A DNA stretch of 63,948 bases, filler included, from Reclinomonas americana ATCC 50394 (Eukaryota): assembly GCA_048213135.1 (NCBI GenBank). It is 8 parts of 5 records of this genome, joined end to end, with 100 filler letters (N's around TTAATTAATTAA, not from the genome) between each part and the next. Parts side by side here need not be neighbours in the genome. Positions count along the whole stretch, not along the records: positions 24,958 to 36,395 come from PS015675.1; 7 more parts are not named here. One strand, given 5' to 3'. Of the stretch, positions 959 through 53,952 are shown in pieces; the stretch's first letter is position 1; each line of letters starts with the position of its first letter. The notes under the pieces are model-generated. The model had not been told where the DNA came from. It saw nothing but the letters and a program-made list of their open reading frames with translations, and did no database searches. The position numbers were made by a program, and so were the translations under genes.

Positions 959-15945
<14,987 letters not shown>

Positions 15946-17273: not shown

Positions 17274-17863
17274 GGCCACGGAGTGTGTGGTGCCCATTCG
17301 TGTGGTCTGTTCTCGCCGACACGCTGCGATCGAGCGGAATGCGGACAACTTTTTCGAAAACCGAACACGACACGTTATTCGTGCTGGGGCGATTGTTCAC
17401 TCCAGAATCTGCAGACCTCAAAGCGCGCAACGGAAACGAAGTCGGAGGCGATCAAGTAGTTTCGTTTCGAACTGGCCAAGGGGCGAGAGAGAATCCAAAG
17501 AGCAACAACAACAACAATTCAACAACAACACCACCAGTGAAGACGCTTCCTCTGCTTTTGCTTTGCTTGCCTCGCGGATCCGGACCCGGCTTTGCTTTGT
17601 TTGCCTGGCTTATGGCCTTTCCCCGAATTCGATGTGCCGTGTACAATCGCAGAAAACGCTATACGTCTATGCAAGTGCGTCATATCCACTGGTCAACCAC
17701 GCTTTTGCGGTGAAGATCGCAGTTCTCGACTTGTTCGGAGCTCCGAGAGCTCTCCTGACTACGNNNNNNNNNNNNNNNNNNNNNNNNNNNNNNNNNNNNN
17801 NNNNNNNTTAATTAATTAANNNNNNNNNNNNNNNNNNNNNNNNNNNNNNNNNNNNNNNNNNNN

Positions 17864-22807: not shown

Positions 22808-25062
22808 TCACAAGGTCGCATTGTGATACACGGCTTGCACATCGGCCTCCTCGTCCAACGCGGCCACCAGATCCAGGACCTGCTGGCGCGATTCGTCGTC
22901 CGGCAGCGCCACCTCTGACTTGGGCTCGAAGATCATTTCGTTCACCTGCCGCCACGATTTTGGTAAGAATGCATTTTCCGGCTCTTGCCTCGCACGCACG
23001 CTCACCTTGCAGAGGTCGCGCAAATCCGCGCGCGAGTCGAGGAGTGCGTGCGTGAGAGTGCCGTAGGCGTCGGGCGGGCACTCAATGTGCACCTCGTTGG
23101 TGCCTTCCACGTCGACTTCGCTCGCACCCTTCTCGATCGCCAGCTCAATCAGCGCCTCGGGATCGGGGACCTTCTCGAACAGGAAAATGCCTGTCGCGCA
23201 TGAGGGTGAACAATAGAGCGGAGGGAGGGGCAGGGGGATATCGTGGGTCTTGCCTTTGCGGTCAAACATCCACGACACGGCACCGGCCTCGCCCAGATGG
23301 CCTCCCTGAATCGCACAGTGAGTGGGTGGAGGCAGAGAGAGTGCTCGGCAAGAGAGAGACGCACATTGCCGTGGAAGTGGTGACGCATGATGGGAGCCGT
23401 CCGTTTTCTATTATCGGTCAGCGTCTCCACAATGAGCGCCACGCCCTTTGGTCCGTAGCTGCAGAGACAGACAGGATGAGAACGGCAGGGATGATTGTCT
23501 CAACAGCTCTGAACGCACCCCTCGTATATCACCGTCTCCATGTCGGTGGTGTCCTTGTTCCCGAGACCCTAACACGAGAAGTGAGCATCCTCAAGCGCAT
23601 GTACTTCCCCCTGGTAGATGTACCTTGTCAATGGCCTTCTGAATGTTGTCCTTGGGCATGCCAGCGGCACGAGCGCGATGCAGAATGGAGGCCAGACGCA
23701 AGTTGGCCGACACGTCGGCGCCTTGCCCTGTGCAGAGTGGTCAGTGCGCTGCTTTCAAGGAAGACGGGATGGGTGTGTGACAAGAGAACCTCTGACGGCC
23801 GCGACAATCTCAAAGCCGAACTTGCAAAAGATCTTGGCCTTTTTCGCGTCCTGTGCGCCCTTACGGTGCTGAATGTTCTTCCACTTGGAGTGGCCGGCCA
23901 TGAAGACGATGGAGAGGTCTGTGGGTGGGGATGAGGAAAGAGGAAAGCGAGGAGAAGGAGAAGAAGAACAGGGAGCGACGAGGAAGAGGTGAGGGTCTCC
24001 AACAAGAATAAGAAGGGAGCGCCGAAGGCGCGACTAACGCAGGATAACAGATGCAGGAAAGGAGTCAGAAGGGAGCGCCGAAGGCGCGATTTACAAGGAG
24101 GTCAGATGGAAGCACAAGAGACAGACGGGAGCGCCGAAGGCGCGACTTGCAAGAAGGTCAGATGGAAGAGACAGATGGGAGCGCCGAAGGCGCGACTAAC
24201 ACAGGATAACAGATGCAGGCAAAGAAGCCAGAAGGCAGCGAAGAGCGACTAACACAAGAGAACAAGAGAAGCGGGAGTCAAAAGGGAGCGCCGAAGGCGC
24301 GACTAACGCAGGATGACAGTTACAGGCACAAGAGTCAGAAGGGAGCGATAAAGAGCGACTAACACACAAGAGAACAGGAGAAGCAGGAGTCAAAAGGGAG
24401 CGCCGAAGGCGCGACTAAAGCAAGCAACGAGTCAGATGGGAGCGCCGAAGGCGCGACAAGCACATGATTATAGATGCAGGTGCAAGAGTCAGAAGGGAGC
24501 GCCGAAGGCGCGACTAACATCGAAGGGCGATGTGCAAGAGTCAACAGGGAGCGCGGAAGGCGCGACTGAAGACAACGAGAGTCAAAGGGAGCACCGAAGG
24601 CGCGACTAACACAGGAGGGCACATGTGAGTGCAAGAGTGAGGAAGAGAGCAAGAAAGCAGCGACTCACACGCGATGGCAGACACAGACACAAAAGCAAGA
24701 AGGCCGCGACGAGAGAGTGCCAGAGGTGACAGATGCACCAGCATGAGCGACAGCCACGCGTGAGAGAGAAGAGAGAGAGAGAGAGTGAGAGACAGAGAAT
24801 GCATGCGAAATGCAAAAAGATGCGGATGCATTGCTCTCTCTCTCTCTCTCTCTCTCTNNNNNNNNNNNNNNNNNNNNNNNNNNNNNNNNNNNNNNNNNNN
24901 NTTAATTAATTAANNNNNNNNNNNNNNNNNNNNNNNNNNNNNNNNNNNNNNNNNNNNGGTAAGGAACGGAACGGAACGAACGAAAGTAACGTACGACGTA
25001 CGTACGTAACGTAACGTAACGTAAAACGTAAACGTAACGTACGGTACGGTACGGTCGTACTC

Positions 25063-25949: not shown

Positions 25950-28900
25950 TCAAGGAGCACCGAGTGAGCGACTCGGCAGCACGCGCTGATGCGACGGCGA
26001 GAATGAATAGTTGGTCCATATGTCGGCCGAGGCGGCGCCGGCCAGCGGTCCACCGCTTCGCGTGGAGCCGTATGACGCCTGCGGGTGTGGTGGTGGCATG
26101 GCAGAGGAGGCGTATGAGTTCTTCACGCTCGTGCCGGCCTGGCTCTCGTCGTCCGAGTCGTAGCGGTTGCGGTTTTGGAAGAGGTTGCGTGGTTGCACCT
26201 CCTTGCCCTCTGCTCAATGGGGGGAAGAAGGATGAGGGAGGGGGAAGGGAAACGGGAAGGGGAAGGAGATGGGAAAAGAAGGGGGTGGAGGGGAAGGGCA
26301 GTGAGGAGAAGGCAAGGACGAGAAATAGGAAAGGGAGGCAGAGCACAGACGGAGCAGAGACGGAGCAGAGCAGAGACGAGAGCAGAGACGGAGCAGAGCA
26401 GAGCAGAGCAAAGCAGAGCAGTGCAGAGCAAAGCAGTGCAGAGCAGAGCAGAGCAGAGCAGAGCAGAGCAGAGCAGAGCAGAGCAGAGCAGAGCAGAGCA
26501 GAGCAGAGCGAGCAGAGTAGAGCGGAGCGGAGCAGAGCAGAGCAGAGCGGAGCAGAGCAGAGCAGAGAAGAGGAAAGCAGAGCAGAGCAGAGCAGAGCAG
26601 AGCAGAGCAGAGGAGAGCAGAGCAGAGCAGAGCAGAGCAGAGGAGAGCAGAGGAGAGCAGATCAGAGCAGAGTAGGGCAGGGCAGGGCAGAGCAGAACAC
26701 AACAGAGCAGAGCAGAGCAGAGGAGAGGAGAGCAGAGCAGAGCAGAGCAGAGCAGAGCAGAGCAGAGCAGAGCAGAGCAGAGCAGAGCAGAGCAGAGCAG
26801 AGGAGAGCAGAGGAGAGCAGAGCAGAGGAGAGCAGAGCAGAGGAGAGCAGAGCACAGCAGAGCAGAGGGGAGCAGATGGGAACAGAGCAGGGCAGGGCAG
26901 ATGAGGAGACGCGAGCAAGGCAGAGGAGAGGAAAGAAGAGCTGAGAAGGCAGAAGAGGGCAGAGGAGAGGAGAGCAGAAGAGAGGAGAGCAGAAGAGAGC
27001 AGAGCAGAGCAGAGCAGAGCAGAGCAGAGTAGAGGAGAGCAAAGCAGAGAAGAGCAGAGCAGAGACGGAGCAGGGCAGAGGAGACGAGAAGAGAAGAGAG
27101 GAGAGCAGAAGAGAGGAGAGGAGGCTAGCGCAGAGTACGCGCGGAACACAGAGAGACCACCAAGAACTCACGTTGCGACCGCTTCACCGGCGCCGACATT
27201 GTGATACTCGTGGTGGCCGGCGCGTTCAAGCTGCCGCGCTCTGTCGGTGCCTTCGGAATGTACTCGAACTCAAAAGTCAGCACCACCATCGATCAACAGA
27301 GAACACTCGCTCGCACAATAACATATCTTTCGGAACTGGATGAGAATGAGCGCCGTGGGGATGATTTCCCACACGAGGAACATGAAGAAGCCGAAGAGAG
27401 TAATGCTGAAATTCTGTGCGCGCACTGTGTCAGCGCACAACACGTGACTCATCGTGTGCTGTCTGCACGCAACAGGATCGAATGAAATGGCTCCCCAATT
27501 CTCCACCGCGTCGTTGAAGGCGCTCACAAAGTCGTAGATGGAGCGCGTGGTGAAAATCACCGCAATCACATAGGAAAAGTAAATCATGCGTGGCGTCACT
27601 TGGCCGCGCAGGAACATGGACTGAACAGAGAGGGGTGAGCATGTGAAAGAGAAAGGGAGAGACTGGAGGAAGAGAGGCACCTTTTGGGTCGGCAGCAGGT
27701 CGCTGTGATCGGCGTGGAGACGAGAGCACTTGAAGGCGAACACCGCGAGGATGGCCATGAGTATCAAGAAGAGGATGCCGCAGACGACGCTCACGAGGGG
27801 TAATGAGAAGGTGAGGCCCGGGAACTCCGTGTCCAGGACGATGTAGACTGTGGGAGGCAAAGGGAAACAGGAAAGGGAGTGAGGAAAGGAAAGGGGGGAG
27901 AAAGGGAGTGAGACTTTCTCTTTTCTCCTCTCAATCAACGCAACTGATAAACGTGCAGCAAAACACCACCGTGAGGACAAGGTAGACTGTGACAAAGATG
28001 TTCTTGCGCTGGCAGTTCTTGCAGTCGCGCCGCTCGTGCGAGAGCACCTCGTTGCCCTGCGAGAGGAAGCCGAGGCAGCAGACGACCTCCTCCCAGCTGT
28101 TGTTGGCCTTGTAGAGGACGCTGCAGAAGAAGAGCACGAGGAGGGCGAAGGTGGCGAATTGGATGCCCATGGGGATCCTGCGGGGGAGGGGAAGGGGGGT
28201 GAGGGGAAGGGAAGAGGGGGGAAGGGAGGGGGGAAAGGGGGGAGGGAGAGGGGGAAGGGTGTGGAATAGGATGTGCGTGAGACTGTGAGGTGTGTGGGTG
28301 TGTGTCCTTGTGCACGAGTGGATAAGAATTCTGTGAGACAGAAGAGAGTGTGTCCGTGTGTAAGCAAGTCTGCACCTGACAGCATGCGTGTTTGGGGGGA
28401 GATTGGAAAGGGAGTGGAATAGGATGTGCGTGAGAATGTGAGGTGGGTGTGTGTCCTTGTGTATGATTGGACAAGAATTCTGTGAGACAGAAGAGAGTGC
28501 GTCCGTGTGTAAGCCAAGTTTGCATCTGACTGCATGCGTGTTGGGGGGAGATTGGAAGGCGGATGGAATAGGATGTGCGTGAGAATTTGAGGGATGTGTG
28601 TGTGTGTGTCCCGTGTGCATCGATGGACAAGAATTCAGTGGGAGAGGATAGAGAGGGCAGCAGACTGACAACGAGTCGTCCGTTGGGGGAGATGGGCAGA
28701 AACGCGAGATGAGCAGGATCTCTGTCTGTGCTGGCTTGCTGCTGTTCAAGAGGGAAGAAGGAAGAGACGGAGGATGAGAGGCTACGAAAGGAAAGGAACT
28801 GTGCTTATCGGTGTCTGTGCTGGCTTGCTGCTGTTCAAGAGAGAAGAGGGAAGACAGAAGATGAGACGTGGTGAAAGGAAAGTCAACTATGCATCGCTGT

Positions 28901-30145
28901 CTGTGCTGGTTTGATTCTGTCGAAGAGGGGAGAGGGAAAAACAGAAGAAGGAGGAAACACAACCGCCATGGGTGTGTGGGTCATCGTGACAAGCGAAGAA
29001 TCGGACCTCTTCTTCTCGCCCTCTCCTTCTCTGTGAGGAATCGTCTTTCCCTTTCTCATCTCTCCGCGCCACTCACCAATAGATGATCTGCACGCCCCAC
29101 ACTGGCCACGTGTCGAGGTTGTAATTGAGCCAGAACATGCACCGCAGCACCGTCCACACAAAGCACAGGATGAGGAAGGCGAACTGTACGAAATGCAAGA
29201 GTTAATAAGCCAGACGAGAGGGAGGGAGGGAGAGAGATAGGGAGAGAGAGTGGGAGAGATAGAGGGAGGGAAAGAGAGTGAGAGAAAGAGAGAAAGAGAG
29301 TGAGAGAAGGAGATAAAGAGTGAGGAAAGTTAAACGTCGCCAATTCGATACTCTCACATACACTCTCATTCACACACGCCACACGCAGAGAGAGAGAGAG
29401 AGAGAGAGTAGAAAGAAAGAGGAGGTGAGAGTGAGAAGAAAAGAAACAGACCGGAGAGTTCAGCGCCACCTTATCTGTCATCTATAAAGACACTCTCACA
29501 TACACTCTCCAAAACATAAACATGCAGAATGCTTGAGAGAGAGAGAGAGAGAAAGAGATAGACAGGCATCTGAAGGGCCACCTTATCCGTCGCCTATGGA
29601 GACACACTGTCTCTCTCTCACAGTCACACAAGCATGCAGAATGCATAAGAGAGAGAAAGAGAAAAAGCGAAAGAGAGCAAGAGGGAGANNNNNNNNNNNN
29701 NNNNNNNNNNNNNNNNNNNNNNNNNNNNNNNNNNNNNNNNNNNNNNNNNNNNNNNNNNNNNNNNNNNNNNNNNNNNNNNNNNNNNNNNNNNNNNNNNNNN
29801 NNNNNNNNNNNNNNNNNNNNNNNNNNNNNNNNNNNNNNNNNNNNNNNNNNNNNNNNNNNNNNNNNNNNNNNNNNNNNNNNNNNNNNNNNNNNNNNNNNNN
29901 NNNNNNNNNNNNNNNNNNNNNNNNNNNNNNNNNNNNNNNNNNNNNNNNNNNNNNNNNNNNNNNNNNNNNNNNNNNNNNNNNNNNNNNNNNNNNNNNNNNN
30001 NNNNNNNNNNNNNNNNNNNNNNNNNNNNNNNNNNNNNNNNNNNNNNNNNNNNNNNNNNNNNNNNNNNNNNNNNNNNNNNNNNNNNNNNNNNNNNNNNNNN
30101 NNNNNNNNNNNNNNNNNNNNNNNNNNNNNNNNNNNNNNNNNNNNN

Positions 30146-31369: not shown

Positions 31370-31850
31370 ATGTACGCGAACTTGAGGGGTTTCGCGGGTC
31401 AAGGCATCCCTGAAGGCTCCTACACGTCGACGATTTACACGCTGATTCGCGATCGCAAGTACCGCGAAGTCATCAACATTCTCAACGCCGAGCTGCCGTC
31501 GTTCCCGCGCTCGCGAGCCGCGCTCTCGGTGAGTGAATGGGGGGAAGCGGGGAAGGGGGGGGAGGAGGGCGGGAAAAGCAAGAGTGTGAGAGGGTGAGGG
31601 AGGGAGAGAGAGGGAGAGAGAGAAGGAGAGAGGGAGAGAAGGAGGGAGGGAGGGAGGTGTGATTGTAAAAGAGAAGACTCAAGCAAAGATGACACGATCG
31701 GACAGAGAGAGAGAGAAAGGCACATAAGCACACTCACACAGAGAGAGGAGAGGGAGGTGCAGCGGGCAGGGTTCAGGTGATTGCAGAGGACTCAAACAAA
31801 GAAGACGATCAACAAGGCTCAGTGACTTGCATAGAGAGATAGGTAGGCAG

Positions 31851-31900
<50 letters not shown>

Positions 31901-32828
31901 GACGACACACACACACACACACACACACACGAGACGACGACGACGTACGGACGGACGGACGGACGGACGAGACGAGAGAGAGAGGAGGAGGTACGGTAGG
32001 TACGGTACGTAGTTACGGTACGGTACGGTAAGGTNNNNNNNNNNNNNNNNNNNNNNNNNNNNNNNNNNNNNNNNNNNNNNNNNNNNNNNNNNNNNNNNNN
32101 NNNNNNNNNNNNNNNNNNNNNNNNNNNNNNNNNNNNNNNNNNNNNNNNNNNNNNNNNNNNNNNNNNNNNNNNNNNNNNNNNNNNNNNNNNNNNNNNNNNN
32201 NNNNNNNNNNNNNNNNNNNNNNNNNNNNNNNNNNNNNNNNNNNNNNNNNNNNNNNNNNNNNNNNNNNNNNNNNNNNNNNNNNNNNNNNNNNNNNNNNNNN
32301 NNNNNNNNNNNNNNNNNNNNNNNNNNNNNNNNNNNNNNNNNNNNNNNNNNNNNNNNNNNNNNNNNNNNNNNNNNNNNNNNNNNNNNNNNNNNNNNNNNNN
32401 NNNNNNNNNNNNNNNNNNNNNNNNNNNNNNNNNNNNNNNNNNNNNNNNNNNNNNNNNNNNNNNNNNNNNNNNNNNNNNNNNNNNNNNNNNNNNNNNNNNN
32501 NNNNNNNNNNNNNNNNNNNNNNNNNNNNNNNNNNNNNNNNNNNNNGAGAGAGAGAGACGCACACACACACTCACACACGCACACAGAGCAGTACAGGGTC
32601 GCGACGGGCGAGACAAGTGAGAGAGGTGCAGTGAGGTCATTGCTGAGTGAAGACTCAGCGACCAAGACTCACTCACTTGCACAGAGAGACAGAGAGGAAG
32701 AGAAACGCAACTCGCACGCATAGACACAAAGGCACATACGAGCACAGAGAGCAGTGCAGGGACGCAACGGGTGTGGTGATTGCAAACCGACAGACTCATA
32801 GATCGAAACACAGAATAGCGCAGGCTTA

Positions 32829-32859
<31 letters not shown>

Positions 32860-35800
32860 AGAGAGTTTGAGTGTGAGGATGAGGGTAGAGAGACAAAGAG
32901 TCCTGAATCAATCGAGAGACAACTGCAATTTCTGTGCTTTCCCGTCTGCCTCTTTCTCGCTGCTGTCGCACTATGCGCTGCTTGTGCTGTGCAGTGCCTC
33001 CTTAGCTGCTCTCCGTGCTCGATTTCTGGCACTGTTTTATATTGTGTCTGGTATTCGTAATCGTTTCACTCTCAAGCGTCTGTCTTCTGCAACGTGTTGT
33101 TTGCATAGCCCTCTCTCATTGTTTTATGCTTGAGGCTCGATTCCTCCGTTGTTGCCTTGTGCAGAATGCTCTAGTCTCGTTGTTCTCTCGATTTCTGTTG
33201 CCGTCTCATGTGCTTGCTTGCGACTTTGGCAGCTTCTTGTCTCATACCGGTTACAAGCGACTTCGTTCACTTGTTTCTTGCGCTGTCCGTCTCCCTCCCT
33301 TCTCTCTCTCTCCCCCCTCTCTCTCCCATTTCTCTCTCCCCTTCTCTCCCTCCCTCTCCCTTCTCTCTTTCCCTTCTTTCACCATTCACTCACTCCCTCC
33401 TCCCTTCTCCCCCTCCCACAGCTCCTCGGCTACTGCTACTACATGATCGAGGACTTTGTGTCGGCCTCCGGCTGCTACGAGGAGCTCCTCAAGTACTACC
33501 CCGACGTGGAGGAGTACAAGGTGTACTATGCACAGGCGCTGCACAAGGCCGCCCTGTACGCCGAGTGCATCAAGACCTGCAATGCGATCGACAAGCCTGA
33601 GTACTCGCAGCGAGTTGCGTCTTGGAGGGGAAGGGATTGGCACAAGGGAAGCTCGGGACACTTTCTATCTGACGCTTCGCTGTCGCTCTCTCTCTCGCTT
33701 CGCTGTCGCTCTCTCTCTCGCTTCGCTCTCTCTCTCTCTCGCTTCGCTGTCGCTCTCCTCGCGCTTCGCTGTCGCTCCCCTTTCGCCGCGATGTCGCTCC
33801 CCTTTTCTTCGCTGTTGCTCTCTCCTCCCGCTTCGCTGTCGCTCTCCTCCTTTCTTCCCTCTCCTCACTCTCCCCCTTTCCCCTTCCCGCAGATCCACAA
33901 ACTGCAAGCACTGGCACTGTACGAGAACGACGACTTCCCCGCCGCCGTCGCTCACCTCGAGTACTGCGTGGCCGACGACCCAGACGTGATTCTCCTCACC
34001 GCCGCCATCTTGTACAAGGTGCGTGCACTTTATATTCGCCTCCACACTCAAACCCTCCCTCACCCTCACCCTCTCCCTCTCTCTCTCCCTCTCCCTCTCC
34101 ACCTCCCTCTCCCTCTCCCTCTCCCTCTCCCTCTCCCTCTCCCTCTCCCTTCTCCCTCTCCCTTCTCCCTGTCCTTCTCTCTGTCCCTCTCCCTCTCCCC
34201 CTCTCTCTCCTTCACCCTCTCCCCCTCCCTCTCCCTCTCACCCTCCCACAGGAGGAGAAATACACCGAGGCCCAGGCCAAGTTCACCGAGGCCATTCAGC
34301 AAATCGGCTCGGGCCAGATGCCACCCGAGCTGGCCTACAACATCTCGCTCTGCTACTACCGCCTCAAGCAGTTCGGCCCCTCGCTCTCCATTATCACCGA
34401 CATTATCGAGCGCGGCATTCGCGAGCACCCCGAACTCAGTGTCGGCAGCAATGCGCAGGGCATTGATGTGCGCAGTGTCGGCAACACGCAGACGCTGAAG
34501 GAGACGGCGTTGATCGAGGCCTTCAACTTGAAGTGTGCCATTGAGTACATTCTCAAGAATTGTTGCGTGAGAGGGAAAGGGAAGGAAGGAGAAGGGAGGG
34601 GGAGAGAAGAGAGGAGGGAGAGATGGGAAAGGAGAGGGGAGGGAGAGGAGAGAGTGGAAAGGAAAGAATAGGAATGGAAGAAAAGAGAGGAGAGGGGAGG
34701 GAGGGGGAAGGGAGGAAAGGAGATGAGGCGGAGTGGAGAGTAGGGAAGAGAAGAGAATGGAAAGGCTGATAAGGAAAAATTTGATTGAGAAAGGTTGATT
34801 AGAGAAGAGCTGGCTGGGAATAGGTGGTGGGAAAGAAGGGGAGGGGAGGCAAGAGGGAGAACAAGTGATCGTCTCTTTTCCACGTGTTTCCTTTCGTCTC
34901 CTTTCGTCTCTTCTCGTCTCCTCTCGTTTCCTCTTGTTTCCTCTCGTTTGCACTCGTTTCCTCTCGTTTCCACTCGTCCCCTCTCGCTTCCTCTCGTTTT
35001 CTCCGGTTTCCACTCGTTTTCTCCGGTTTCCACTCGTTTCTTCTCATTTGCACTCGTTTCCTCTTCGTTTCCTCTTCGTTTCCTCTTCGTTTCCTCTCGT
35101 TTCCTCTTCGTTTCCTCTTCGTCTCCTCTCGTCTCCTCTCGTCTCCTCTCGTCTCCTCTCGTCTCCTCTTCGCTCCTCTCGTCTCCTCTTCGCTCCTCTC
35201 GTTTCGTTTGCACTCGTTTGCACTCGTTTGCACTCGTTTGCACTCGTTTGCACTCGTTTGCACTCGTTTGCACTCGTTTCCACTCGCTTCCTCTCGTTTC
35301 CACTCGCTTCCTCTCGTTTCCACTCGTTTCCACTCGTTTCCACTCGTTTCCACTCGTTTCCTCTCGTTTCCACTCGTTTCCTCTCGTTTCCACTCGCTTC
35401 CTCTCGTTTCCACTCGTTTCCACTCGTTTCCTCTCGTTTGCACTCGTTTCCTCTCGTTTCCACTTGTTTCCTCTCGTTTCCAGTCGTCTTCTCTCGTTTC
35501 CTCTCTTGCTGCGTCCGATGAAGCTTGTGACAAATAATTCGCTGACGCATTCTTTCCCCTGTCCCCGCGCAGACGACGTCGCTCGCGACGCCCTGCTGGA
35601 CATGCCACCGCGCTCTGAGGAGGAGCTCGATGTCATTTCGCTGCACAATCAGGCCTTGGTGAACATGGACACGGTGCGTACGCCAAGTGCCGCTCTCTTC
35701 TCGCTTCGTGCCTCTCACTCCACTTACCACAGGATCCCACTGGCGGCTTCCGGAAACTCAATTTCCTGCTGTCGAGTCCGCCGTTCCCGCCAGAAACATT

Positions 35801-38800
35801 CGGCAATCTGCTGCTGCTGTACGTCAAGTACTCGTACTTTGATCTGGCGGCCGACATTCTGGCCGAGAATGCGCATCTCACGTACAAGTATCTCACGCAA
35901 GTTGAGAAGGGTGAAGGGGAAGGGAGGGAAAGGGGAAAAGGTGGAAGGGGGAAGGGGGAGGCAGGAATGAGTGAGAGAAACAAGAGCAATAGTGTGCGGT
36001 CGGATGAAGACGATTCTAGTACAGAAGATCAGTACGGGAAGGAGAAGGTTACCAGTTGCTGATTGAGGTGTTCTGGCCACTTTAGCATTGTTTGCAGACG
36101 TGAGAGTCAGAGGTGATTAGAGAAAGAAGATGCATGTTGAGACTTTTTTGCACAAGCGTTATGTACTGTTCTGGAGATGAGATGCAGAGCTGAGACGGGT
36201 AATTGTGCGAGTGTGTTGTAGACTTGCGAGAGTGAGAAATAATTGGAAGCGCGAATTCAGCATGCAGAGGTGTGACGTTTGCGTTGTTCGAATATGAGAA
36301 TGGGAGTAAGGGGCACAAGGAGCATGCTGAGATGTAGGTCTTGCTTAAGTGTTATTCGCGGTCGAGACAGATGTGAGAGGGAGCAGCTGTAGTATNNNNN
36401 NNNNNNNNNNNNNNNNNNNNNNNNNNNNNNNNNNNNNNNTTAATTAATTAANNNNNNNNNNNNNNNNNNNNNNNNNNNNNNNNNNNNNNNNNNNNCCTGT
36501 CTCTTCTTGCCTGTCTCTTCTTGCCTTTCTCTTCTTGCCTTTCTCTTCTTGCCTGTCTCTGCGTGCCTGTCTCTTCTTGCATGTCTCTTCTTGCCTGTCT
36601 CTGCTTTCTCTTTGCCTCGTCCATCTTCTCACATCCCTTTCCCCTTTCCCCCTCTTCCGCAGGACCTCTTTGACTTCCTCGACGCCGTCATCACATGTCA
36701 AACGTCGCCAGCCGAGGCATTCCGCAAGTTCGAGGAGCTGTCCAAGAGACACATTGGCACGCTGCGCGACCTGACCAAGGAGATTCAGGTGCGTGTACTC
36801 ACTCTCTCTTCTCCTTGCACTCTTCTCTCATTCTACCCGTGAGTGCAGGAGGCCCGCATGAAGAAGGATGCCGATGGCATCAAGCAGGCGCTGAAGGAGT
36901 ACGACGAGGCACTCGAGCAGTTGAGTGGAGACAGGGAGAAGTTCCTATCTTCATGGAAGATTTCACTCACCGTCTCTCACACGTCGCAGATACATTCCGG
37001 TGCTCATGGCGCAGGCCAAGATCTACTGGGACATGGAGAATTATCCGATGGTCGAGAAGCTCTTCCGCCAGAGTGCCGAGTTTTGCGTGGAGCACGATGT
37101 GTGGAAGTTGAATGTCGCGCACGTGTTTTACATGCAAGAGTCGAAGTTCAAGGAGGCGATTCAGTATTACGATCCGATGGTCAAGAAGGTGGCGGATTCG
37201 GTGTGTGGGGGGAGGGAAGGAAGGGGGAAAGGGAAGGGGTAATAGGGAAAGGGAAGGGAAGGGAGGGAAGGGAAGGGGAAGGGAGGGAGATGAGAGAGGG
37301 GCGAAGGGAGACGAAAAAAAGGGAAGGGACGGGGGAGGGGAAGACAGGACTCTCTCGCATGGTCTTCTAGTGTGTGTATCTTTGCCTTGTAGTGTCTCTT
37401 TCGGCATCAGAGTTGGTTGAAATAGTGGAAAGAGGTGGGCGATCAAGACGGGATAGAGTTTTAGAGACAAGCAACGATTTTCTTGGTGTGTTTATGCGCA
37501 AGCGAATTTTTGACTATTTTTGCGCTGTTCGTCTCAGCCGCTATGTGTCTCTCTGTGTTTTTGTGTTTGTTTGTCTCTCTTTCTCTCTCACTGCCTATGC
37601 CTCTGTTAATTTCTGTGCCTTTTTCTCTGACTTTGACTCTGTATGTCTCTGCCTCCAATTTCAGCTCTGTCGCAGTGCTCTGTCGCTGTGCTCTGTCGCA
37701 GTGCTCTTTCGCTGTCGCTGTGCTCAATTGCTGTGCTCTGTCGCTGTGATCTGTCGCTGTGCTCTGTCGATGTGCTCTGTTGCTGTGCTCTGTCGCAGTG
37801 CTCTGTCGCTGTGCGCTGGCATTGTCTAGCTGTCGCAGTGCTCTGTGTCTGTGTCTGTGTCTGTGCTCTTGCGCTGTGCTCTTGCGCTGTGCTCTGTCGC
37901 TGTGCTCTGTCGCTGTGNNNNNNNNNNNNNNNNNNNNNNNNNNNNNNNNNNNNNNNNNNNNNNNNNNNNNNNNNNNNNNNNNNNNNNNNNNNNNNNNNNN
38001 NNNNNNNNNNNNNNNNNNNNNNNNNNNNNNNNNNNNNNNNNNNNNNNNNNNNNNNNNNNNNNNNNNNNNNNNNNNNNNNNNNNNNNNNNNNNNNNNNNNN
38101 NNNNNNNNNNNNNNNNNNNNNNNNNNNNNNNNNNNNNNNNNNNNNNNNNNNNNNNNNNNNNNNNNNNNNNNNNNNNNNNNNNNNNNNNNNNNNNNNNNNN
38201 NNNNNNNNNNNNNNNNNNNNNNNNNNNNNNNNNNNNNNNNNNNNNNNNNNNNNNNNNNNNNNNNNNNNNNNNNNNNNNNNNNNNNNNNNNNNNNNNNNNN
38301 NNNNNNNNNNNNNNNNNNNNNNNNNNNNNNNNNNNNNNNNNNNNNNNNNNNNNNNNNNNNNNNNNNNNNNNNNNNNNNNNNNNNNNNNNNNNNNNNNNNN
38401 NNNNNNNNNNNNNNNNNNNNNNNNNNNNNNNNNNNNNNNNNNNNNNNNNNNNNNNNNNNNNNNNNNNNNNNNNNNNNNNNNNNNNNNNNNNNNNNNNNNN
38501 NNNNNNNNNNNNNNNNNNNNNNNNNNNNNNNNNNNNNNNNNNNNNNNNNNNNNNNNNNNNNNNNNNNNNNNNNNNNNNNNNNNNNNNNNNNNNNNNNNNN
38601 NNNNNNNNNNNNNNNNNCGAGCACAGCAACGGAGCACAGCGACCGAGCACAGCGACAGAGCACAGCGACCGAGCACAGCGACCGAGCACAGCGACCGATC
38701 ACAGCGACAGAGCACAGCGACAGAGCACAGCGACAGAGCACAGCGACAGAGCACAGCGACAGAGCACAGCGACAGAGCACAGCGACAGAGCACAGCGACA

Positions 38801-40328
38801 GAGCACAGCGATAGCACAGCGATAGAGCGCAGCGACACAGACACAGACACAGACACAGCGACAGAGCACAGGCACAGACACAAGCGCAAGCGCAAGCACA
38901 AGCACAGAACACAGCGACCGAGCACAGCGATAGAGCACAGCGACCGAGCACAGCGACAGAGCACAGCGACAGAGNNNNNNNNNNNNNNNNNNNNNNNNNN
39001 NNNNNNNNNNNNNNNNNNNNNNNNNNNNNNNNNNNNNNNNNNNNNNNNNNNNNNNNNNNNNNNNNNNNNNNNNNNNNNNNNNNGTCGCTGTGCGCTGGCA
39101 TTGTCTAGCTGTCGCTCTCTCGTTATGTGTCTCTGTTTCTCTGTCTGTGTGTGTCACTATCGCTGTTTCTGTTGCTGTCTCTGTCTGTGTCTGCGCTCTG
39201 TTGCTGAGCTCTGTCTTATGCCCTTTCTTTAGTGTTGTTTCCCATCTCATCGGTTATCTGTCTCTGAAGTTGTTCTCGATACCAGTTCAGCCTTCTGCTG
39301 CCTTCTCCCTCTTCTATTTCTCTGCCTGACAGCTCTCCTTTCGGGTTGGAAGGTCATTTACTTCGTCTTGTCGTGTATCTGTTGCAAATGGAAGAGAAAA
39401 TGAGATGAGCATAGAGTACTTGAAGAGCACGGCAAAGTAAGAGAGTGTATGCTCTCTGCTGACTCTTGCGCCCCTCCCTTTCCTTTCACAGGACATCCTC
39501 TCCGTACCCGCCATGGTGCTGGCCAACCTGTGCGTGTCGTACATTATGACCAGCCACAACGAGGACGCTGAGGAGTTGATGCGCAAGGTGCGTGGGGTTG
39601 TTTTCTGTGGCTCGTGCGCATTGTTCTCACTCGCGTCGCAGATTGAGCACGAGGAGGAGATTGCGATTTCGGAGGATCCCGATAAGCAAGTGTTGCATCT
39701 GTGCATCGTCAATCTCGTCATTGGCACGCTGTATTGCTCGAAGACCAATTACGAGTTTGGTATCTCGCGTATCATCAAGAGTCTGGAGCCGTATGCCAAG
39801 AAGGTGTGTGGAGGGAGGGAGAAGGGAGAAGGGGAAAAAGAGGGAAAGGGACATTGAGAAGGGGGGTAAGGGGAAGGGAAAGGGCAGGGGGCAGTGAGGA
39901 AGGTGGAGTGCAGGTGAGCAAGTGAGTGAGAAGCAAGGGACAAAGATTGGGTTGTTAAGATAGAGAGGAAGGACGTGGGTTGTGAGTGAGCAGGACATAA
40001 ACTCGTGTAGAATAGTGTGAGGACGGCATACGTAAGCGCAGTGCATGTGTTCAAGTATTCCGATAAGTGCTCGAGTGTGAATGCGCTTAATCCACGTCAG
40101 CTCAGAACAAGAGAGATGTCACTGTCTTTCAAGACTCCCCTCTCTTTGTGTGTGTCGGCAATGCGCACGAAGAATGGTCACACTGCGGTTGCAGAGAAAC
40201 AAGTAGATGAGCGCAGTCGTCTTCTTGTTGTGCATGTTCATATGTGTGCGTGAGCAACGCAGTATGTGCTTGTGTACTCATGTACACATGGAATGGGCAC
40301 CAGTCAGTCATCTTTCTGCCCGTCTATG

Positions 40329-40376
<48 letters not shown>

Positions 40377-41195
40377 ACGTACGTCGTACCGTACCGGTAC
40401 GTACCGTTACGTCGTACGACGAGTAGTACGCGTAGNNNNNNNNNNNNNNNNNNNNNNNNNNNNNNNNNNNNNNNNNNNNNNNNNNNNNNNNNNNNNNNNN
40501 NNNNNNNNNNNNNNNNNNNNNNNNNNNNNNNNNNNNNNNNNNNNNNNNNNNNNNNNNNNNNNNNNNNNNNNNNNNNNNNNNNNNNNNNNNNNNNNNNNNN
40601 NNNNNNNNNNNNNNNNNNNNNNNNNNNNNNNNNNNNNNNNNNNNNNNNNNNNNNNNNNNNNNNNNNNNNNNNNNNNNNNNNNNNNNNNNNNNNNNNNNNN
40701 NNNNNNNNNNNNNNNNNNNNNNNNNNNNNNNNNNNNNNNNNNNNNNNNNNNNNNNNNNNNNNNNNNNNNNNNNNNNNNNNNNNNNNNNNNNNNNNNNNNN
40801 NNNNNNNNNNNNNNNNNNNNNNNNNNNNNNNNNNNNNNNNNNNNNNNNNNNNNNNNNNNNNNNNNNNNNNNNNNNNNNNNNNNNNNNNNNNNNNNNNNNN
40901 NNNNNNNNNNNNNNNNNNNNNNNNNNNNNNNNNNNNNNNNNNNNNNNNNNNNNNNNNNNNNNNNNNNNNNNNNNNNNNNNNNNNNNNNNNNNNNNNNNNN
41001 NNNNNNNNNNNNNNNNNNNNNNNNNNNNNNNNNNNNNNNNNNNNNNNNNNNNNNNNNNNNNNNNNNNNNNNNNNNNNNNNNNNCGACGTACGTAGTTGTC
41101 GTTCGTTGTTACGTTACTACTAGTACGTACACTAGGTAAGTAGGTCGGTACCGACCGTACGTACGTCTACTCTTCTTCTCCGTCCTCTCTGTCTC

Positions 41196-41245
<50 letters not shown>

Positions 41246-41683
41246 GTCTGCCTGTCAATCTCTCTCTCTCTCTCTCTGTCTGCCTGTCTGTGTGTCTTCT
41301 GTGTGTCTTCTATCTATCTGTCTTTCTGGCTGTCTGTCTCTCTCTCCCACACACACATTCTCCCTCTGTTTGTCTGTCTGCATGTCTGTCTACCTACCTG
41401 TCTGCCTTTCTCTCCCTTCCCCCGTCACGCACAGCTCATGATCGACACGTGGTTCTACGCCAAGCGCTGCTTTGTCGCGCTGGCCGAGAACCTCGCCAAG
41501 CACATGCTGCCGTTGGGCGACGAGAGCTTCCGTGAGATTCTGTCGTTCCTGGAGGCCGCCGACACGTACGGTCGCAACATTTACACCACTCCGGAGCAGC
41601 CGTTGGAGACGGAGGAGACGAGGCGCACGGTTAGCCAGGAGGCGCGCATTCTCAAGCGTATTTTCTTGAAGCTCAAGGGTTGA
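31370..41683 (+). CDS. TTC30: Intraflagellar transport protein 70 (TTC30/DYF-1/fleer), 12 exons
   Basis: IPEGSYTSTIYTLIRD, RSRAALS|LLGYCYY, IIERGIREHPELSVG, ETALIEAFNLK, DMPPRSEEELD, PFPPETFGNLLLLY, YIPVLMAQAKIYW, HLCIVNLVIGTLYC, DTWFYAKRCF, TVSQEARILK; 11 introns splice in frame. Confidence 0.96.
34890..35505. repeat. Pyrimidine-rich 10-mer satellite (CTCGTTTCCA / CTCGTTTGCA variants) in TTC30 intron 4
   Basis: Direct inspection. Confidence 0.9.
37664..39215. repeat. 13-mer satellite (CTGTCGCTGTGCT)n, present in both orientations across gaps, in TTC30 intron 9
   Basis: Forward at 37664-37917 and from 39084; reverse complement at 38618-38974. Confidence 0.85.
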
Positions 41684-42103: not shown

Positions 42104-45100
42104 TCATCGTCGTCCCTGTCCCACCTCGTCGGTCACTTCCTCAATGCCAACGCCACCCACAGCACCAAGCGCGTTGGTGAAATCGGGCAAGACGGTGCCG
42201 AGAATACGCTCCACAAGCCCGCGAGTGTTTCGACGCATCAGTTGGATCCTCTTGCCGGACACACGGGTGGTGTACGCAGAACCGAACGCCATGCAGCGAA
42301 GATAAGTCACACGACCCGCCGAAGGCTCAACGAGGTCCGCCTGCTCATCAAGAGGCACTTCTTCTCCAGTCGGCAGTGACCACACACGTACTTCTCCGTG
42401 ACCACCGCGGCTCACGATGTACTGGCCATCGGGAGTGACATCAACAGCCCACACCTCACCAGAGTGTCCCTCCAGTCGTAGCACTTCCTCGCCACTCGCC
42501 AGTGACCACACTCGTACTGTCTTGTCGTCACTCCCACTTACGATGTACTGACAATTGGGAGTGACAGAGACAGACACCACAGTGCCGGTGTGTCCCTCCA
42601 GTCGGCGCACCTCCTCGCCGCTAGCCAGTGACCACACACGCACTGTGTTGTCAAAACTTGTACTAACAATTTGCTGACCATCAGGAGTGACGGCGACAGA
42701 CAGCGCAATTGCAGTGTGACCCCGCAGCCACCGCACTTCTTCTCCACTCGCCACTGACCACATACGCACTGTTGCGTCCCCGCCTCCGCTGACAATGTGC
42801 TGACCGTCAGGAGTGACGGCGACACATGTCACCCATCCAGTGTGTCCTTCCAACCGCCGCAACTCTTCTCCACTCGCCAGTGACCACACGCGCACTGTAT
42901 TGTCATGGCCTCCGCTGACAATGTATTGGCCATCGGGAGTGACGGCGACACACCTTACGTAACCATCGTGCCCCTCAAATTGTCGCATTTCTTCTCCACT
43001 CGCCAGTGACCACACCAGAATCGACCCGTTCTCACCCCCACTCACAGCGAATTGACCATCTGGAGAAACAGTAAATGTGGAGGACTGTCCTGCCACCTGC
43101 CACAGTTCCTCGCCTGTTGACACAGACCACATCCTCACCGTGCCGTCATCACCGGCACTCACAGCATGCTGACAGTCGTGGGTGAGCACAACTGAATGCA
43201 CCGATCCAGTGTGTCCACCTAACCGCCGCACTCCTTCATCACCCGCCACAGGCCACATTCGTACTGTCATATCTTCACCCCCACTGACGATATACTGACC
43301 ATCAGGAGTCACCTTGATTGAATACAATCCACCAGTGTGTCCCTCCAACCGTCGCACCTCTTCGCCACTCGCCAGTGACCAAACCCGCACAGTCGAGTCC
43401 CTACTCCCGCTGACGACGTGCTGCCCATCAGGAGTGAAGGCGACAGTCCGTACTGCCGCAGTGTGTCCCTCGAACCGTCGCACTTCATCTCCATTCGCCA
43501 CTGACCACACCCGTACAGTCATGTCCACGCTGCCACTCACGATAAGCTGGCCATCGGGTGTCACTGCCACTGCCAGCACCCCATTCGTGTGGCCTTTCAG
43601 GTGGCGCACCTCCTCGCCCCCTGCCAACGACCACACCCGTACAGTCCCGTCATAACTGCCACTCACAATGTGCTGGCCATCGGGTGTCACTGCCACTGCA
43701 TGCACCGAATTCGTGTGGCCTTCCAGTAGGCGCACCTCCTCGCCACTTGCCATCGACCACACCCGTACAGTCTTGTCCAAACTGCCACTCACAATGTGCT
43801 GGCCATCGGGGGCCACCGTCACTGCAAACACCCAGCCCGCGTGGCCTTCCAGTCGGCGCACCACCTCGCCACTTGCCACCGACCACACCCGTACAGTCTT
43901 GTCTCGACTGCTACTCACAATGTGCTGACCATCGGGTGTCACTGCCACTGCAAGCACCGTTCGCGTGTGGCCTTCCAGTCGGCGCACCTCCTCGCCTTTT
44001 GCCACCGACCACACCCGTACAGTCTTGTCAGAACTGCCACTAACAATGTGCTGACCATCTGGAGTGACAACTAAAGAGTGCACAATTCCAGTGTGCCCCA
44101 CCATCGGCTTTCTCGGCCACTTCACACCCGTCACATCCGCCCCCCTGAAATCTGCCTCCCTCGCATACGCCATGCACACATTCACTCCTCGCAAATCCGC
44201 TCCTCTCCACACCGTCCGGTGCATCACTGCATCTCTCAAATCCGTACCCCTCACTCTCACGCCCGACAGATCCCGCCCGCTGAACGACACTTGTGCCACA
44301 CACAACACCGTTGCTGCATTCGCTGCGGCCGTCACCGCTCGCTCCTCATCCACCTCCCGTGACATCTCAATCACCTCCCACAGTCTCGCTTGCAATCGAG
44401 GAGATCGTCGCACCACCTCGGCCATCTGCTCCACCAGCGACGGTCGATCATTCAGCAGTCGCACTGCCAACACATGTTGCTGCACATCTTGCATCGTCAA
44501 CCTCCTCTCCTCATCCCATGTCTCCCACGTAAACACATGCCTTGCCACACAGTGCTCCAGCAACGACAGATGCACAAATCCCCACTGCGTCGTCCCATAC
44601 CGTCGCACAATCGGACAGCACACTCGCACATGCTGGTTCTTGTGTCCGAGGAACTTATCAAACGGTCCCTCTTTCACTCGTCTCCGACGACCGAGTGGCG
44701 CACCACCAGAGTCTTCCTCCTCCTCACCGTCATCGCCTGACCGATTCTCTATCGCAGACACACGCACAACATTCCTCTCATGCATCAATCGTGCCAGTCC
44801 CTCACAGAATGAGAGACACGTCTCCTCACTCGGCACACGCTCCGCACCGAGACGTGTCTGTCTCTCCTGTTCCCTCACAATCCACTGTCGAATGAATCGG
44901 TCAAACACATCACACCGAGTCGGTCGCTGCACACCACTCGCCACCAACTGCGGCAACACACGAGTCACCACTGCCAACAGGAATGGATTCGACACCAATG
45001 CATCTAGTCCATGCACACCCTTCAATGCGCGAATGTACTCCTCGGCAGTTGACCATCGCACTTCATCGTCAGCATCACCCACTTGCACCAGTCGCTCAAA

Positions 45101-47004
45101 GTACTGCTCAATTTGCTCATTGTTAAACGGCGCAATGTGTCGCTCCATCAACTGCTGCATGCACAACTGTCCTCGTGCATCCACCGGTGCAAAGAACCGT
45201 CGATACTGCGCCGCTCCTCCAAGTGCCGTCAGTGCGTAATCGCCACGGCACGTGATAATCACCTTTACATCGCGACACACACCCAGCTGGTTTTTGACAA
45301 ACAGATTCACGCCACGGTACAACTCATCGTACCCGTCAAGCAGCAACAACAGTGGTTCCTCCTTCAGCCGTCGCACATCCGACTCGCTGAATCCCAACTC
45401 GGGCGACAGTCGTTCCAGTGCCTCCTCCAACAGTCGCTCGTCGGCATTGCGCAGTGCACCAAGAGGCACACGCACAGGTACTCGTCGAGTCTCTCCCGTC
45501 TGCCACTGCCGCCATGCTCGCTCAGCCAGCACCGACATGGTGGTCGTCTTGCCGGCACCACTGTTACCAAATAACACCAGCACACGCTGCGCGGTGTTGG
45601 AATCGGAGAGGAACGCATCCATCTCTGTCAATAGATCCGCCATCTTCTCTCTCGACGAGACGTCACGATCACGAGAGCACAGCAGCGGCACATACATCTG
45701 CATGTCCTGGCGCACACTCTCGTCCTCGTGATAATAGGCCATCTCAAGCACTGCCAGTCGATGCAGTCGCTCCTCGAATGTGCTGACACTAAAATCGAGG
45801 TGACGAGCCTCTCGAATCCGCGTTGCAAAAACGTCAATCACGTCGGCTGGCAGCTGCAACTTGCCAAGGAATGTAAGGAACGTGCCGTGGTCGCCGAGAT
45901 ATTCATGAACGCTGGCCGCTGTCCATGCCGGCGAACCGTGCGCCAACTCATTCCGCACTTCCCGCAACTGCGCCACCGTGACACGTTCGCTTGCGCGACT
46001 GATCAGGGGGAAGGAAGCATCATCGTGCACAAAGCCACCGAACAGCAGGATGGTGGTGAGTGCTGTCACGTCAAAGGCGTCACACGAGGGATCGGAGGCG
46101 GGATCGTCATCAAAGGCAGCCTTCCAGTCGAGCACGTGCTGCTGCTGCTGCTGCGCAAACAACTTGACTCGCCCAGGAGCGAGTGGTGCATGTTGATCGT
46201 ACCACGCCTTGATCGTCATTGGATGCCAGAACAACGGAGGCGTCCACGCGTCGGGAGTCCACGCCCGCACATTGAAGTCGGCATGATCGCGACTGAATTG
46301 CGCCAGTGCGCGTTGACACCGCAGACGCACGGCCTCCTCCACTACCTCGAAGGCCATGTTGATGCGTTGGGAGTTGATCATGCTGCGCACCCAGCGCTGT
46401 CAGTTCCAAGTGCAAGAACAAGCAGGGGAGGGCGAGATAACAAACCGAGTTACTCGGTCCGAGTTGCTGGGCGGAGACATGAGAGTGAGATGCATGCTTT
46501 GCACAGAGAGATGAATCAAACACATACCTTCCACTCCCACTCCCACTCCCTCCACTCGGCTGCAGCGCCACGCCAAGCGTCAGACGGACGATAAGATGAG
46601 TGGATGAGTTGATGCCAAGTGCACCAACTGGCATGCCAGCCAGGACCTCTATGTCGAANNNNNNNNNNNNNNNNNNNNGCTCGTACAGGCTCACAGAGCG
46701 CGTAATGTTGCGCACGTGGATCTCAATGACGAGTTGTTCGGTGGAGGGGACCACTAGTGCACGTGAGGATGAGGGAAGGGAGAGGATGCAGAAGTCTGAG
46801 AGAGACAGTGAAAAGGGATACCACACCTGCATTCTGTGCAGCGAGTGCGGAGGTGAGGCCGACAGCCATGAACGCAGTGGTGCCCAAGGCCATGCGACGG
46901 GCGAGGGAGGCAAGCAAGTGCATTGGCGCTTGATCGGAGAACGGGTCGGAGATTTGTGTGGGACGGGACAGCCGACGGCTGAGCTTGCTGCGTTCAGGCA
47001 TCAC
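42104..47004 (-). CDS. NLR-like STAND protein: HEPN-like domain, NACHT, pentapeptide repeats, 14 WD40 repeats; main exon 42104-46396 plus small upstream exons, 5' end uncertain
   Basis: FDVTALTTIL...LREVRNELAHG; Walker A GNSGAGKTT; Walker B LLLLLDGYDE; VIITCR; NPFLL; FVHLSLLEH; FSGRDLSGVRVRGTDLRDA; GH...VTPDGQHIVSGS.DKTVRVW repeats. Confidence 0.92.
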
Positions 47005-50967: not shown

Positions 50968-51292
50968 NNNNNNNNNNNNNNNNNNNNNNNNNNNNNNNNN
51001 NNNNNNNNNNNTTAATTAATTAANNNNNNNNNNNNNNNNNNNNNNNNNNNNNNNNNNNNNNNNNNNNAGAGAGAGAGAGAGAGAGAGAGAGAGCACTCGC
51101 CTAATGGCACTCGCAAGCAGGGACTACTCATCCACGCACTCTCTCGCAATTCCTCAATCGATACCACACTCTCACTTCTTCTCATCCCCTCCTTCTCTAC
51201 CCTCCCTTTTCCTCATTCCTACCTTCCTACCTTCCCCCTTTCCACCCTTTCCCGTCCCCTCTCCCTTCCCCCTCCCCCTTTGCCCCACGCAC

Positions 51293-53577: not shown

Positions 53578-53952
53578 GGAGGCAACGACAATCAAGCGCG
53601 TGTTGGCCATTTCGTGGCGCAAATAGTGTCAGCGGCCTACGTAGACGCTGAACTCGTTGAAGTTGGGTGCTGCAGTAGCGACGCGATGCCCTGAGGCTGC
53701 GGGTGAGAGATTGTTTGCTTGAGCCTGATTGCCACCGGCACAGCGGAAAGCGAACATTGCACAGTCCGCCCGCAGAATCTCCACACAGCACCTGTCCACC
53801 ATTCGGCGCAGTTGGCCGCTCTCAATGCCCATCTTCTTCAACGACTGTTCTCTTACCCTATCAAATATCCGCCACGCACACAGTTTCCCGGGTTCGACGA
53901 AAGACAAGTTCACCAACTGGATACGCACGCTCTTCCTCTTTCTCCCATGTCA

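What the first reader, a model, noticed from the sequence alone, without database searches (positions are those of the whole stretch)
27260..27326. Probable U2-type AT-AC intron in the GPR137/TOM1-like gene
Seen: on the minus strand the exon ...LIQFRK (CGA AAG) must join the frame IPKAPTER..., which is fixed by the downstream phase-1 junction leading to RNLFQNRNRYDSDDE. I found no GT-AG pair giving that frame, and read-through hits TGA. Removing AAG|ATATGT...GCTGAC...GAGTAC|ATT (67 nt, the usual short-intron size here) gives EIIPTALILIQFRKIPK, colinear with the TOM1-family E.LPSALVLFILRKLP motif. The donor is ATATGT (the GTATGT donor with G>A), not the U12 ATATCC, and the branch site is U2-like. 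Inference: a major-spliceosome AT-AC intron, a very rare class.
Basis: partly seen in the sequence, partly recalled or inferred. Interest (0 to 1): 0.7.

Follow-up and report, generated by a model that had tools for sequence, protein, structure and literature searches.

The report
Probable major-spliceosome AT-AC intron
A 67-base stretch in a membrane-protein gene of an unidentified protist is most likely a rare intron that starts with AT and ends with AC but otherwise looks like the organism's ordinary introns, a kind already known from animals and here not yet confirmed by RNA.

Summary
The 67-nt segment 27326-27260 (minus strand) is there as described: AAG|ATATGT...GCTGAC...TAC|ATT, phase 0, in a GPR137/TOM1-like gene. 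The claim 'no GT-AG pair gives the frame' is wrong: 17 GT-AG and 16 GC-AG pairs do. Scored against 87 hand-picked introns of the window, the AT-AC parse (ends converted) gets 21.4 bits (real median 21.9), the best GC-AG pair 18.1, the best GT-AG pair 9.2. Codon usage collapses right at the AT donor. U12 consensus tests fail: +5 is G and there is no CCTTAAC. Best reading: U2-type AT-AC intron (about 0.62). No reads, genome or orthologous locus could be obtained, so nothing is shown at RNA level. The class is known. This scan has already noted three similar introns, U12-type AT-AC introns and the shifted GTTGCG donors elsewhere in this genome (AI notes; only the donors were re-tested here).

The parts
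27260..27326 (-). proposed AT-AC intron, 67 nt, phase 0 (intron 5 of the modelled part of the gene)
   Evidence: top-scoring of 154 frame-keeping parses, 21.4 bits with ends converted
27321..27329 (-). 5' splice site AAG|ATATGT (U2-type: -2A, -1G, +5G, +6T)
   Evidence: donor 8.2 bits, median of real donors; GTATGT is used by 3 of 87 introns; 3 mismatches to RTATCCTT
27276..27281 (-). U2-type branch site GCTGAC, branch A at 27277 (-18)
   Evidence: CTVAY consensus, mean distance 21.7 +/- 6.5
27270..27274 (-). TTTGA with A at -11: matches the Physarum minor-intron branch motif in sequence and position; overlaps the T4 run 27275-27272 where a one-base overcall would join the frames
   Evidence: 1 of 87 canonical introns has it at -9..-12
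27260..27262 (-). 3' splice site TAC; first Y-A-(C/G) after the branch site
   Evidence: acceptor 2.9 bits, weak (6th percentile)
27327..27413 (-). upstream exon (last hydrophobic helix, ends ...WEIIPTALILIQFRK)
27172..27259 (-). downstream exon (IPKAPTER...KRSQ), GC3 0.79
25950..26209 (-). last exon with RYDSDDE motif and stop
27474..29183 (-). four upstream exons (29183-29077, 28177-27945, 27847-27681, 27620-27474) with GT-AG introns; 5' end of the gene not identified (N gap at 29689-30145)
   Evidence: family lead GPR137/TOM1
27241..27310 (-). best canonical rival: GC-AG intron, 70 nt (CGA|GCGAGT...GACAG)

Best explanation
The segment is a 67-nt spliceosomal intron with A and C as terminal bases, removed by the major (U2) spliceosome. 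U1 and then U6 read AAG|AUAUGU through the exon AG and intron +3..+6 (+5G, +6U), tolerating A at +1. U2 pairs with GCUGAC and branches at A-18. The second step picks the first Y-A-C after the branch, because a first-base A pairs with a last-base C in place of the usual G-G contact. Shown: the sequence elements, their fit to this genome's introns, the coding break, the frame. Inferred: that splicing occurs, that the acceptor is the AC, and which spliceosome acts. The A-C terminal compensation is established knowledge (Parker and Siliciano 1993, seen only as cited in PMC5029451 and described in PMC1557818). Origin is unresolved. The simplest route is direct conversion of a minor ATATCC/T-AC intron by a +5 C>G change, the route proposed in PMC2831892; the alternative is G>A and G>C changes in a GT-AG intron.
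For:: best of 154 frame-keeping parses; 21.4 bits against a leave-one-out median of 21.9 for 71 real short introns (31 of 71 score at or below it). Best GT-AG pair 9.2 (1 of 71 as low), best GC-AG pair 18.1. Markov content favours it over the two best GC-AG parses by 9-17 bits and over 3 of 4 GT-AG parses tested by 9-26 bits; the fourth (27374-27269) ties but removes most of the last helix and needs a GAG acceptor; the five codons after AAG are rarer than all but 1 of 1,894 real 5-codon runs; read as code the segment has GC3 11 of 22 against 0.82 for the gene (p 5.5e-4); donor has 3 mismatches to RTATCCTT including +5; best CCTTAAC match 3 of 7, no better than any of 87 ordinary introns. PMC2831892: +5G marks U2-type AT-AC introns. 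Two independent base-call errors giving exactly the A/C pair are very unlikely (inference).
Against: No RNA, read or orthologue support. The prior is low: 24 of about 610,000 introns in five species (PMC1557818 table); on splice signals alone this prior cancels the 3-bit lead over the GC-AG rival. The acceptor is weak (6th percentile), and the last four triplets GAG TTC GAG TAC look like good codons (only 11 of 261 real intron ends look as coding). 3 of 70 real introns have an equally good AT..AC decoy. Known metazoan cases have a strong ATAAGT consensus (PMC5029451); this one is ATATGT. TTTGA at -11 points to a possible minor-type branch. The reference intron set is my own curation under a GT/GC-AG model, so its all-YAG rule is partly circular.
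Confidence: 0.62

Rival explanations
1. No intron. The assembly has one T too many in the T4 run at 27275-27272; without it the two frames join and the segment codes for 22 extra residues after the last helix.
For: The two frames overlap across 27292-27273 and the T4 run lies in the overlap. Flow-order junk beside gaps (about 25000-25060) suggests 454-type data, whose typical error is a homopolymer miscount (inference and own knowledge). The last four codons are near-optimal.
Against: Synonymous-codon score -9.6: 0 of 1,783 22-codon windows of the conserved genes are as low (14 of 1,783 with a broader training set; windows are in-sample; 365-406 of 2,547 windows of the two repeat-protein genes are as low). 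GC3 11 of 22 against 0.82. No frameshift at 54 runs of 4 or more bases in 13,620 frame-intact coding bases (these were chosen as intact). It leaves the donor, branch and modal length as coincidence.
Confidence: 0.1
2. A GC-AG intron 27310-27241 (70 nt) is used, giving ...FRKICYCAKRGSL...
For: 18.1 bits, donor GCGAGT mirrors the commonest GTGAGT, acceptor ACAG is the first YAG after the branch site. GC-AG introns exist here (1 of 87, 23253-23191) and are far commoner than U2 AT-AC introns.
Against: A at -1 (62 of 70 ordinary donors and the one GC donor have G). Branch at -37, where only 1 of 64 nearest sites lies beyond -35. Three purine-AG skipped, where 0 of 64 skip more than one. It forces the rare-codon run into the exon: -10 to -17 bits of content.
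Confidence: 0.08
3. The AT-AC intron is real but spliced by the minor spliceosome, or by both, using TTTGA (A at -11) as a divergent U12 branch site.
For: In Physarum the minor branch is TTTGA with A 9-12 nt from the 3' end, in 67% of ATATCYTT-AC introns and 6% of others (bioRxiv 10.1101/2020.10.12.336362). Here 1 of 87 ordinary introns has it. The donor differs from ATATCYTT only at +5 and +8. Unchecked notes report minor AT-AC introns in this genome.
Against: +5G breaks the rule quoted in PMC2846911 and is the hallmark of U2 use. A strong U2 branch at -18 and AG at -2/-1 are present. The notes call this genome's minor introns 'textbook', which suggests a normal CCTTAAC-type branch (not checked). 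I looked for TTTGA after seeing it, so its rarity is overstated.
Confidence: 0.08
4. The AT donor at 27326 is real but the main acceptor is one of the in-frame AGs (27269, 27263, 27251), or several are used.
For: All are in frame with the donor, so the protein would change by only -3 to +3 residues. AT-AG 27326-27251 scores 18.7. The coding look of the last 12 nt fits an earlier acceptor.
Against: All three are GAG or AAG; none of 87 curated acceptors is (partly circular). A first-base A favours a last-base C in the major spliceosome (PMC1557818 section 20).
Confidence: 0.07

Closest known systems
U2-dependent AT-AC ('AT-AC II') introns of human SCN4A/SCN5A/SCN8A and TAF2 (Sheth et al. 2006, PMC1557818; de Wolf et al. 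2021, PMC8280824 supplement)
   Same: AT and AC ends with a major-type donor (+5G, +6T, exon AG), major-type branch, no U12 consensus.
   Different: Short protist intron; donor ATATGT rather than the ATAAGT consensus; weak pyrimidine tract; no conservation or experiment shown; host gene family absent from the human lists.
Proposed direct AT-AC U12 to AT-AC U2 conversion (Lin et al. 2010, PMC2831892)
   Same: The donor equals ATATCC with +5 C>G and +6 C>T, the changes that paper names; phase 0 with G at -1, the profile said to favour conversion (PMC7367187).
   Different: No orthologous minor intron was found; human GPR137 genes have none listed.
U12-type AT-AC introns, including the Physarum TTTGA variant (Larue et al., bioRxiv 10.1101/2020.10.12.336362)
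   Same: AT-AC ends, ATAT start, T at +7, TTTGA with A at -11.
   Different: G at +5, A at +8, no CCTTAAC, strong CTGAC branch; the window holds no minor-type donor among 87 introns, unlike Physarum.
Endogenous AT-AC junction nested in yeast RPL30 (PMC5029451)
   Same: AT-AC splicing without minor-spliceosome signals.
   Different: That is a 1-2% side product with an atypical donor; here the intron would be needed for the full-length protein.

Membership tests
U2-type AT-AC intron | AT first and AC last dinucleotide at a junction needed for the frame | tested here: inconclusive
   Best-scoring parse but canonical, indel and other-acceptor rivals remain; 2-nt ambiguity
U2-type AT-AC intron | 5' site matches the major consensus apart from +1 (Sheth et al. 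rule) | tested here: met
   Donor 8.2 bits, 51st percentile of this genome's donors; I used a window-trained matrix, not the SpliceRack score of 75
U2-type AT-AC intron | major-type branch site at normal distance | tested here: met
   GCTGAC, A at -18, 68th percentile
U2-type AT-AC intron | removal seen in RNA | not testable with these tools
   no run was listed
U2-type AT-AC intron | dependence on U1/U2/U6, not U11/U12/U6atac | not testable with these tools
   needs experiment
U12-type AT-AC intron | 5' site RTATCCTT (one of +5/+6 may be T) | tested here: not met
   mismatches at +5 (G), +6, +8 (rule)
U12-type AT-AC intron | CCTTAAC-type branch site | tested here: not met
   best 3 of 7 in -40..-5
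Physarum-type transformed U12 intron | TTTGA with A 9-12 nt from the 3' end | tested here: met
   A at -11; 1 of 87 controls
Physarum-type transformed U12 intron | RTATCYTT donor and a co-changed U12 snRNA | tested here: not met
   donor fails at +5 and +8; the snRNA could not be searched
GPR137/TOM1 (PF27607/PF06454) host gene | profile match above the curated cut-off | tested here: inconclusive
   single exons only: PF06454 E 0.5, 10.2 bits against cut-off 25; Atlas 0.92 and 0.90 to TOM1 clusters, 0.88 to GPR137B, both queries below the recognition threshold
Ancient minor-intron position | orthologue carries a U12 or AT-AC intron | tested here: not met
   GPR137 absent from human U12 A-type, G-type and U2 AT-AC tables with E2F1, TAF2, SCN8A found (1 of 13 files not searched); also absent. 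Human, mouse and one human-Arabidopsis set only; no protist orthologue obtained

The most novel reading that the evidence does not exclude
The intron is a snapshot of direct minor-to-major conversion with the AT-AC ends kept: ATATCY became ATATGT, a CTGAC branch took over, and a relict minor branch survives at -11. With at least three similar candidates, many minor AT-AC introns and a second, shifted donor class reported in the same genome, this lineage may have a major spliceosome with relaxed reading of intron position +1 that routinely captures AT-AC introns. That would make a route proposed in 2010 testable across a genome.
Probability: 0.2. Interest if true: 0.58.

Novelty: new member of a known kind. 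Interest (0 to 1): 0.3.

Why it matters
U2-type AT-AC introns are among the rarest natural introns (24 of about 610,000 in five species, PMC1557818) and their origin is unsettled. One more unconfirmed case adds little by itself. Its value lies in the setting: a genome that seems to hold both spliceosomes, several such introns and an unusual second donor class, where a genome-wide count and orthologue comparison could show whether they come from minor AT-AC introns or from GT-AG introns. In practice, a GT-AG-only gene finder misplaces this junction and cuts away most of the last helix (my model did so).

Tried and rejected
Own genome: none held, so U11/U12/U4atac/U6atac and other AT-AC junctions could not be searched; Rfam finds nothing in the window. 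Sequencing runs: none was listed; this is no evidence either way, and no reads were laid. Homologous proteins: three word-index searches found nothing; the full scan gave 2 hits, P0001 (116-aa fragment, 50% identical over exon 3 only, 743-base contig) and P0002 (a repeat protein I judged unrelated by eye); PDB gave nothing relevant. Two of six Pfam queries were in the wrong frame and were redone. Metagenome scans: protein-based 0 of 288 confirmed; junction pattern 18 loci, none homologous on translation and tblastn (L001 looked close but its flanks hold no matching exons). My recollection that GPR137 genes carry a minor intron was not borne out (with controls; negative without a working control; no supplement). 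Rejected: two base-call errors hiding an ordinary GT-AG intron (needs two exact substitutions; one error at +1 alone leaves only GAG/AAG acceptors in frame); GA-AG 27327-27231 (6.0 bits); GT-AG pairs (9.2 bits at best); simple retention with the stop at 27272 as the real end (the two later exons keep an open frame, GC3 0.75-0.79 and proper junctions). In one search one training gene was out of frame; one search is the corrected run. Paper searches for U2-type AT-AC introns and for jakobid plus AT-AC showed no report on this gene; bioRxiv supplements were closed and may hold plant AT-AC lists that bear on TOM1.

Full report
What is there. On the minus strand, 27326..27260 is 67 nt, follows AAG, begins ATATGT, holds GCTGAC and ends GAGTAC before ATT. 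A seven-exon model (29183-29077, 28177-27945, 27847-27681, 27620-27474, 27413-27327, 27259-27172, 26209-25950) gives a stop-free 362-residue partial protein; the segment is its fifth intron, in phase 0, and the other five introns are GT-AG. Read-through stops at 27272. The family label GPR137/TOM1 is a lead, not a test passed: two separate parts hit TOM1 or GPR137 clusters in the Atlas at 0.88-0.92 but below its recognition threshold, and Pfam PF06454 is hit at E 0.5.

Enumeration gives 33 canonical pairs that keep the frame, 17 GT-AG and 16 GC-AG. The question is therefore which parse fits this organism.

Reference set. A self-trained GT/GC-AG gene model proposed 135 introns in 11 gene regions. 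I kept or re-set 87 by eye on frame and protein continuity and dropped the rest, including those ending GAG or AAG. The set has 86 GT-AG and 1 GC-AG, acceptors CAG 81 and TAG 6, a CTVAY branch in 64 of 87, and a modal length of 67. Terminal bases are fixed by construction and the all-YAG result is partly circular.

Scores. With ends converted to GT and AG, the AT-AC parse is the best of 154 frame-keeping parses: donor 8.2, acceptor 2.9, branch 8.4, total 21.4 bits, against a leave-one-out median of 21.9 for 71 short introns. The best GC-AG pair (27310-27241) scores 18.1 and the best GT-AG pair 9.2. These totals carry no prior for the ends; GC-AG is roughly a hundred times commoner than U2-type AT-AC, so signals alone do not settle it. 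Content does most of the work. The five triplets after AAG are rarer than all but 1 of 1,894 real 5-codon runs, and Markov content puts the GC-AG rival 10-17 bits behind. That rival also has A at -1, a branch at -37 and three skipped purine-AGs, where 0 of 64 controls skip more than one. Chance controls are less flattering: 8 other AT..AC pairs in 48,582 sense bases score as high, and 3 of 70 real introns have a frame-keeping AT..AC decoy as good.

The two frames overlap over 27292-27273, which contains a T4 run. One T fewer would give an unbroken frame with 22 extra codons and no intron. The window shows flow-order junk beside gaps, which I read as 454-type data. Against this, the 22 codons score -9.6 on synonymous usage, lower than all 1,783 windows of the conserved genes (14 of 1,783 with broader training; 365-406 of 2,547 windows of two repeat-protein genes are as low), and GC3 is 11 of 22 against 0.82. 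For it, the last four triplets look like good codons. I give it 0.10.

Which spliceosome. The donor misses RTATCCTT at +5, +6 and +8, and the best CCTTAAC match is 3 of 7 (consensus from passages of PMC2846911 and PMC3033335). It has the exon AG, +5G and +6T, and a CTGAC branch at -18. PMC2831892 (passages) names +5G as the mark of U2-type AT-AC introns. One feature points the other way: TTTGA with its A at -11 matches the transformed minor branch of Physarum (passages of bioRxiv 10.1101/2020.10.12.336362), seen in 1 of 87 controls. I noticed it after the fact, and the donor still fails at +5.

Mechanism and origin. Most likely the major spliceosome reads AAG|AUAUGU, branches at 27277 and ligates at the first YAC, the terminal A and C replacing the G-G contact (PMC1557818 section 20; PMC5029451 passages). 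In-frame AGs at 27269, 27263 and 27251 would buffer imprecise 3' choice. The donor is ATATCC with the +5 and +6 changes that PMC2831892 proposes for direct conversion, and only 4 of 70 ordinary donors here have AT at +3/+4, which leans to a minor-intron origin. But human GPR137 genes are absent from the U12 and U2 AT-AC tables of PMC8280824 (supplement search with three controls found; 12 of 13 files) and from partial lists, so no ancient position is shown. No orthologous locus was found.

Earlier notes of this scan (unchecked AI notes). Other pieces of this genome are reported to hold textbook minor AT-AC introns, three other probable U2-type AT-AC introns, a variant U1 and the shifted GTTGCG donor class. 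I had found the donor class independently before looking (17 of 87; G at -1 in 2 of 17 against 62 of 70, p 2e-9). The rest I could not test. They raise the prior that such introns occur here and keep the minor or hybrid reading alive.

Papers seen: passages or single sections of PMC1557818, PMC2831892, PMC2846911, PMC3033335, PMC7367187, PMC10639083, PMC11347168, PMC5029451, PMC8280824 and the Physarum preprint; supplement term searches only for PMC6717393, PMC10853781, PMC2426677, PMC4066798, PMC11347168 and PMC8280824; header only for PMC8848931. None was read whole.

Verdict. Probable U2-type AT-AC intron, about 0.62; an intron starting at this AT donor under any spliceosome or acceptor, about 0.77. 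It is a new member of a known rare kind, without RNA proof. Interest 0.3.

Noticed in passing
window, 17 introns, e.g. 27944(-), 27473(-), 33614(+), 34562(+), 35901(+), 36920(+), 21996(+): A second donor class GTTG(C/A/T)G: the usual motif shifted by one base, used when the exon does not end in G (G at -1 in 2 of 17 against 62 of 70; p 2e-9). Two are in this gene and four in IFT70. Already noted many times elsewhere in this genome by the scan.
   Followed up: partly
window 23253-23191 (-): A GC-AG intron (AAG|GCAAGA, 63 nt) in a YebC/TACO1-like gene (label from the N-terminal motif, recalled).
   Followed up: partly
window 8958-9057, 17764-17863, 24858-24957, 36396-36495, 50968-51067, 60581-60680, 62774-62873: Seven joins of 44 N, a 12-base TTAATTAATTAA linker (read at six of them) and 44 N; one lies inside the IFT70 gene, so these are ordered contigs. 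Flow-order junk beside other gaps suggests 454-type reads.
   Followed up: no
window 31370-41683 (+): IFT70/TTC30-like gene with 11 introns (label by eye; Pfam gave only weak TPR hits), implying a flagellate.
   Followed up: partly
window 42104-46399 (-): 4.3-kb intron-free frame with a P-loop, pentapeptide-like and WD40-like repeats (by eye), unusual in so intron-dense a genome.
   Followed up: no
window 1000-15945 (+) and 53600-60960 (-): Two large Ser/Thr-rich repeat-protein genes (IPT/NHL/fibronectin-like by eye); the first has a 3.5-kb exon of 315-nt tandem repeats.
   Followed up: no
window 28230-28920 (-): Tandem duplications of about 120-150 nt inside intron 1 of the GPR137/TOM1-like gene, each ending in an acceptor-like ...CAG; intron 6 (27171-26210) is mostly a CTGCT microsatellite.
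   Followed up: no
window 27271-27260 (-): The last 12 nt of the proposed intron read as near-optimal codons in the downstream frame, possibly former exon absorbed by acceptor sliding; unexplained.
   Followed up: partly
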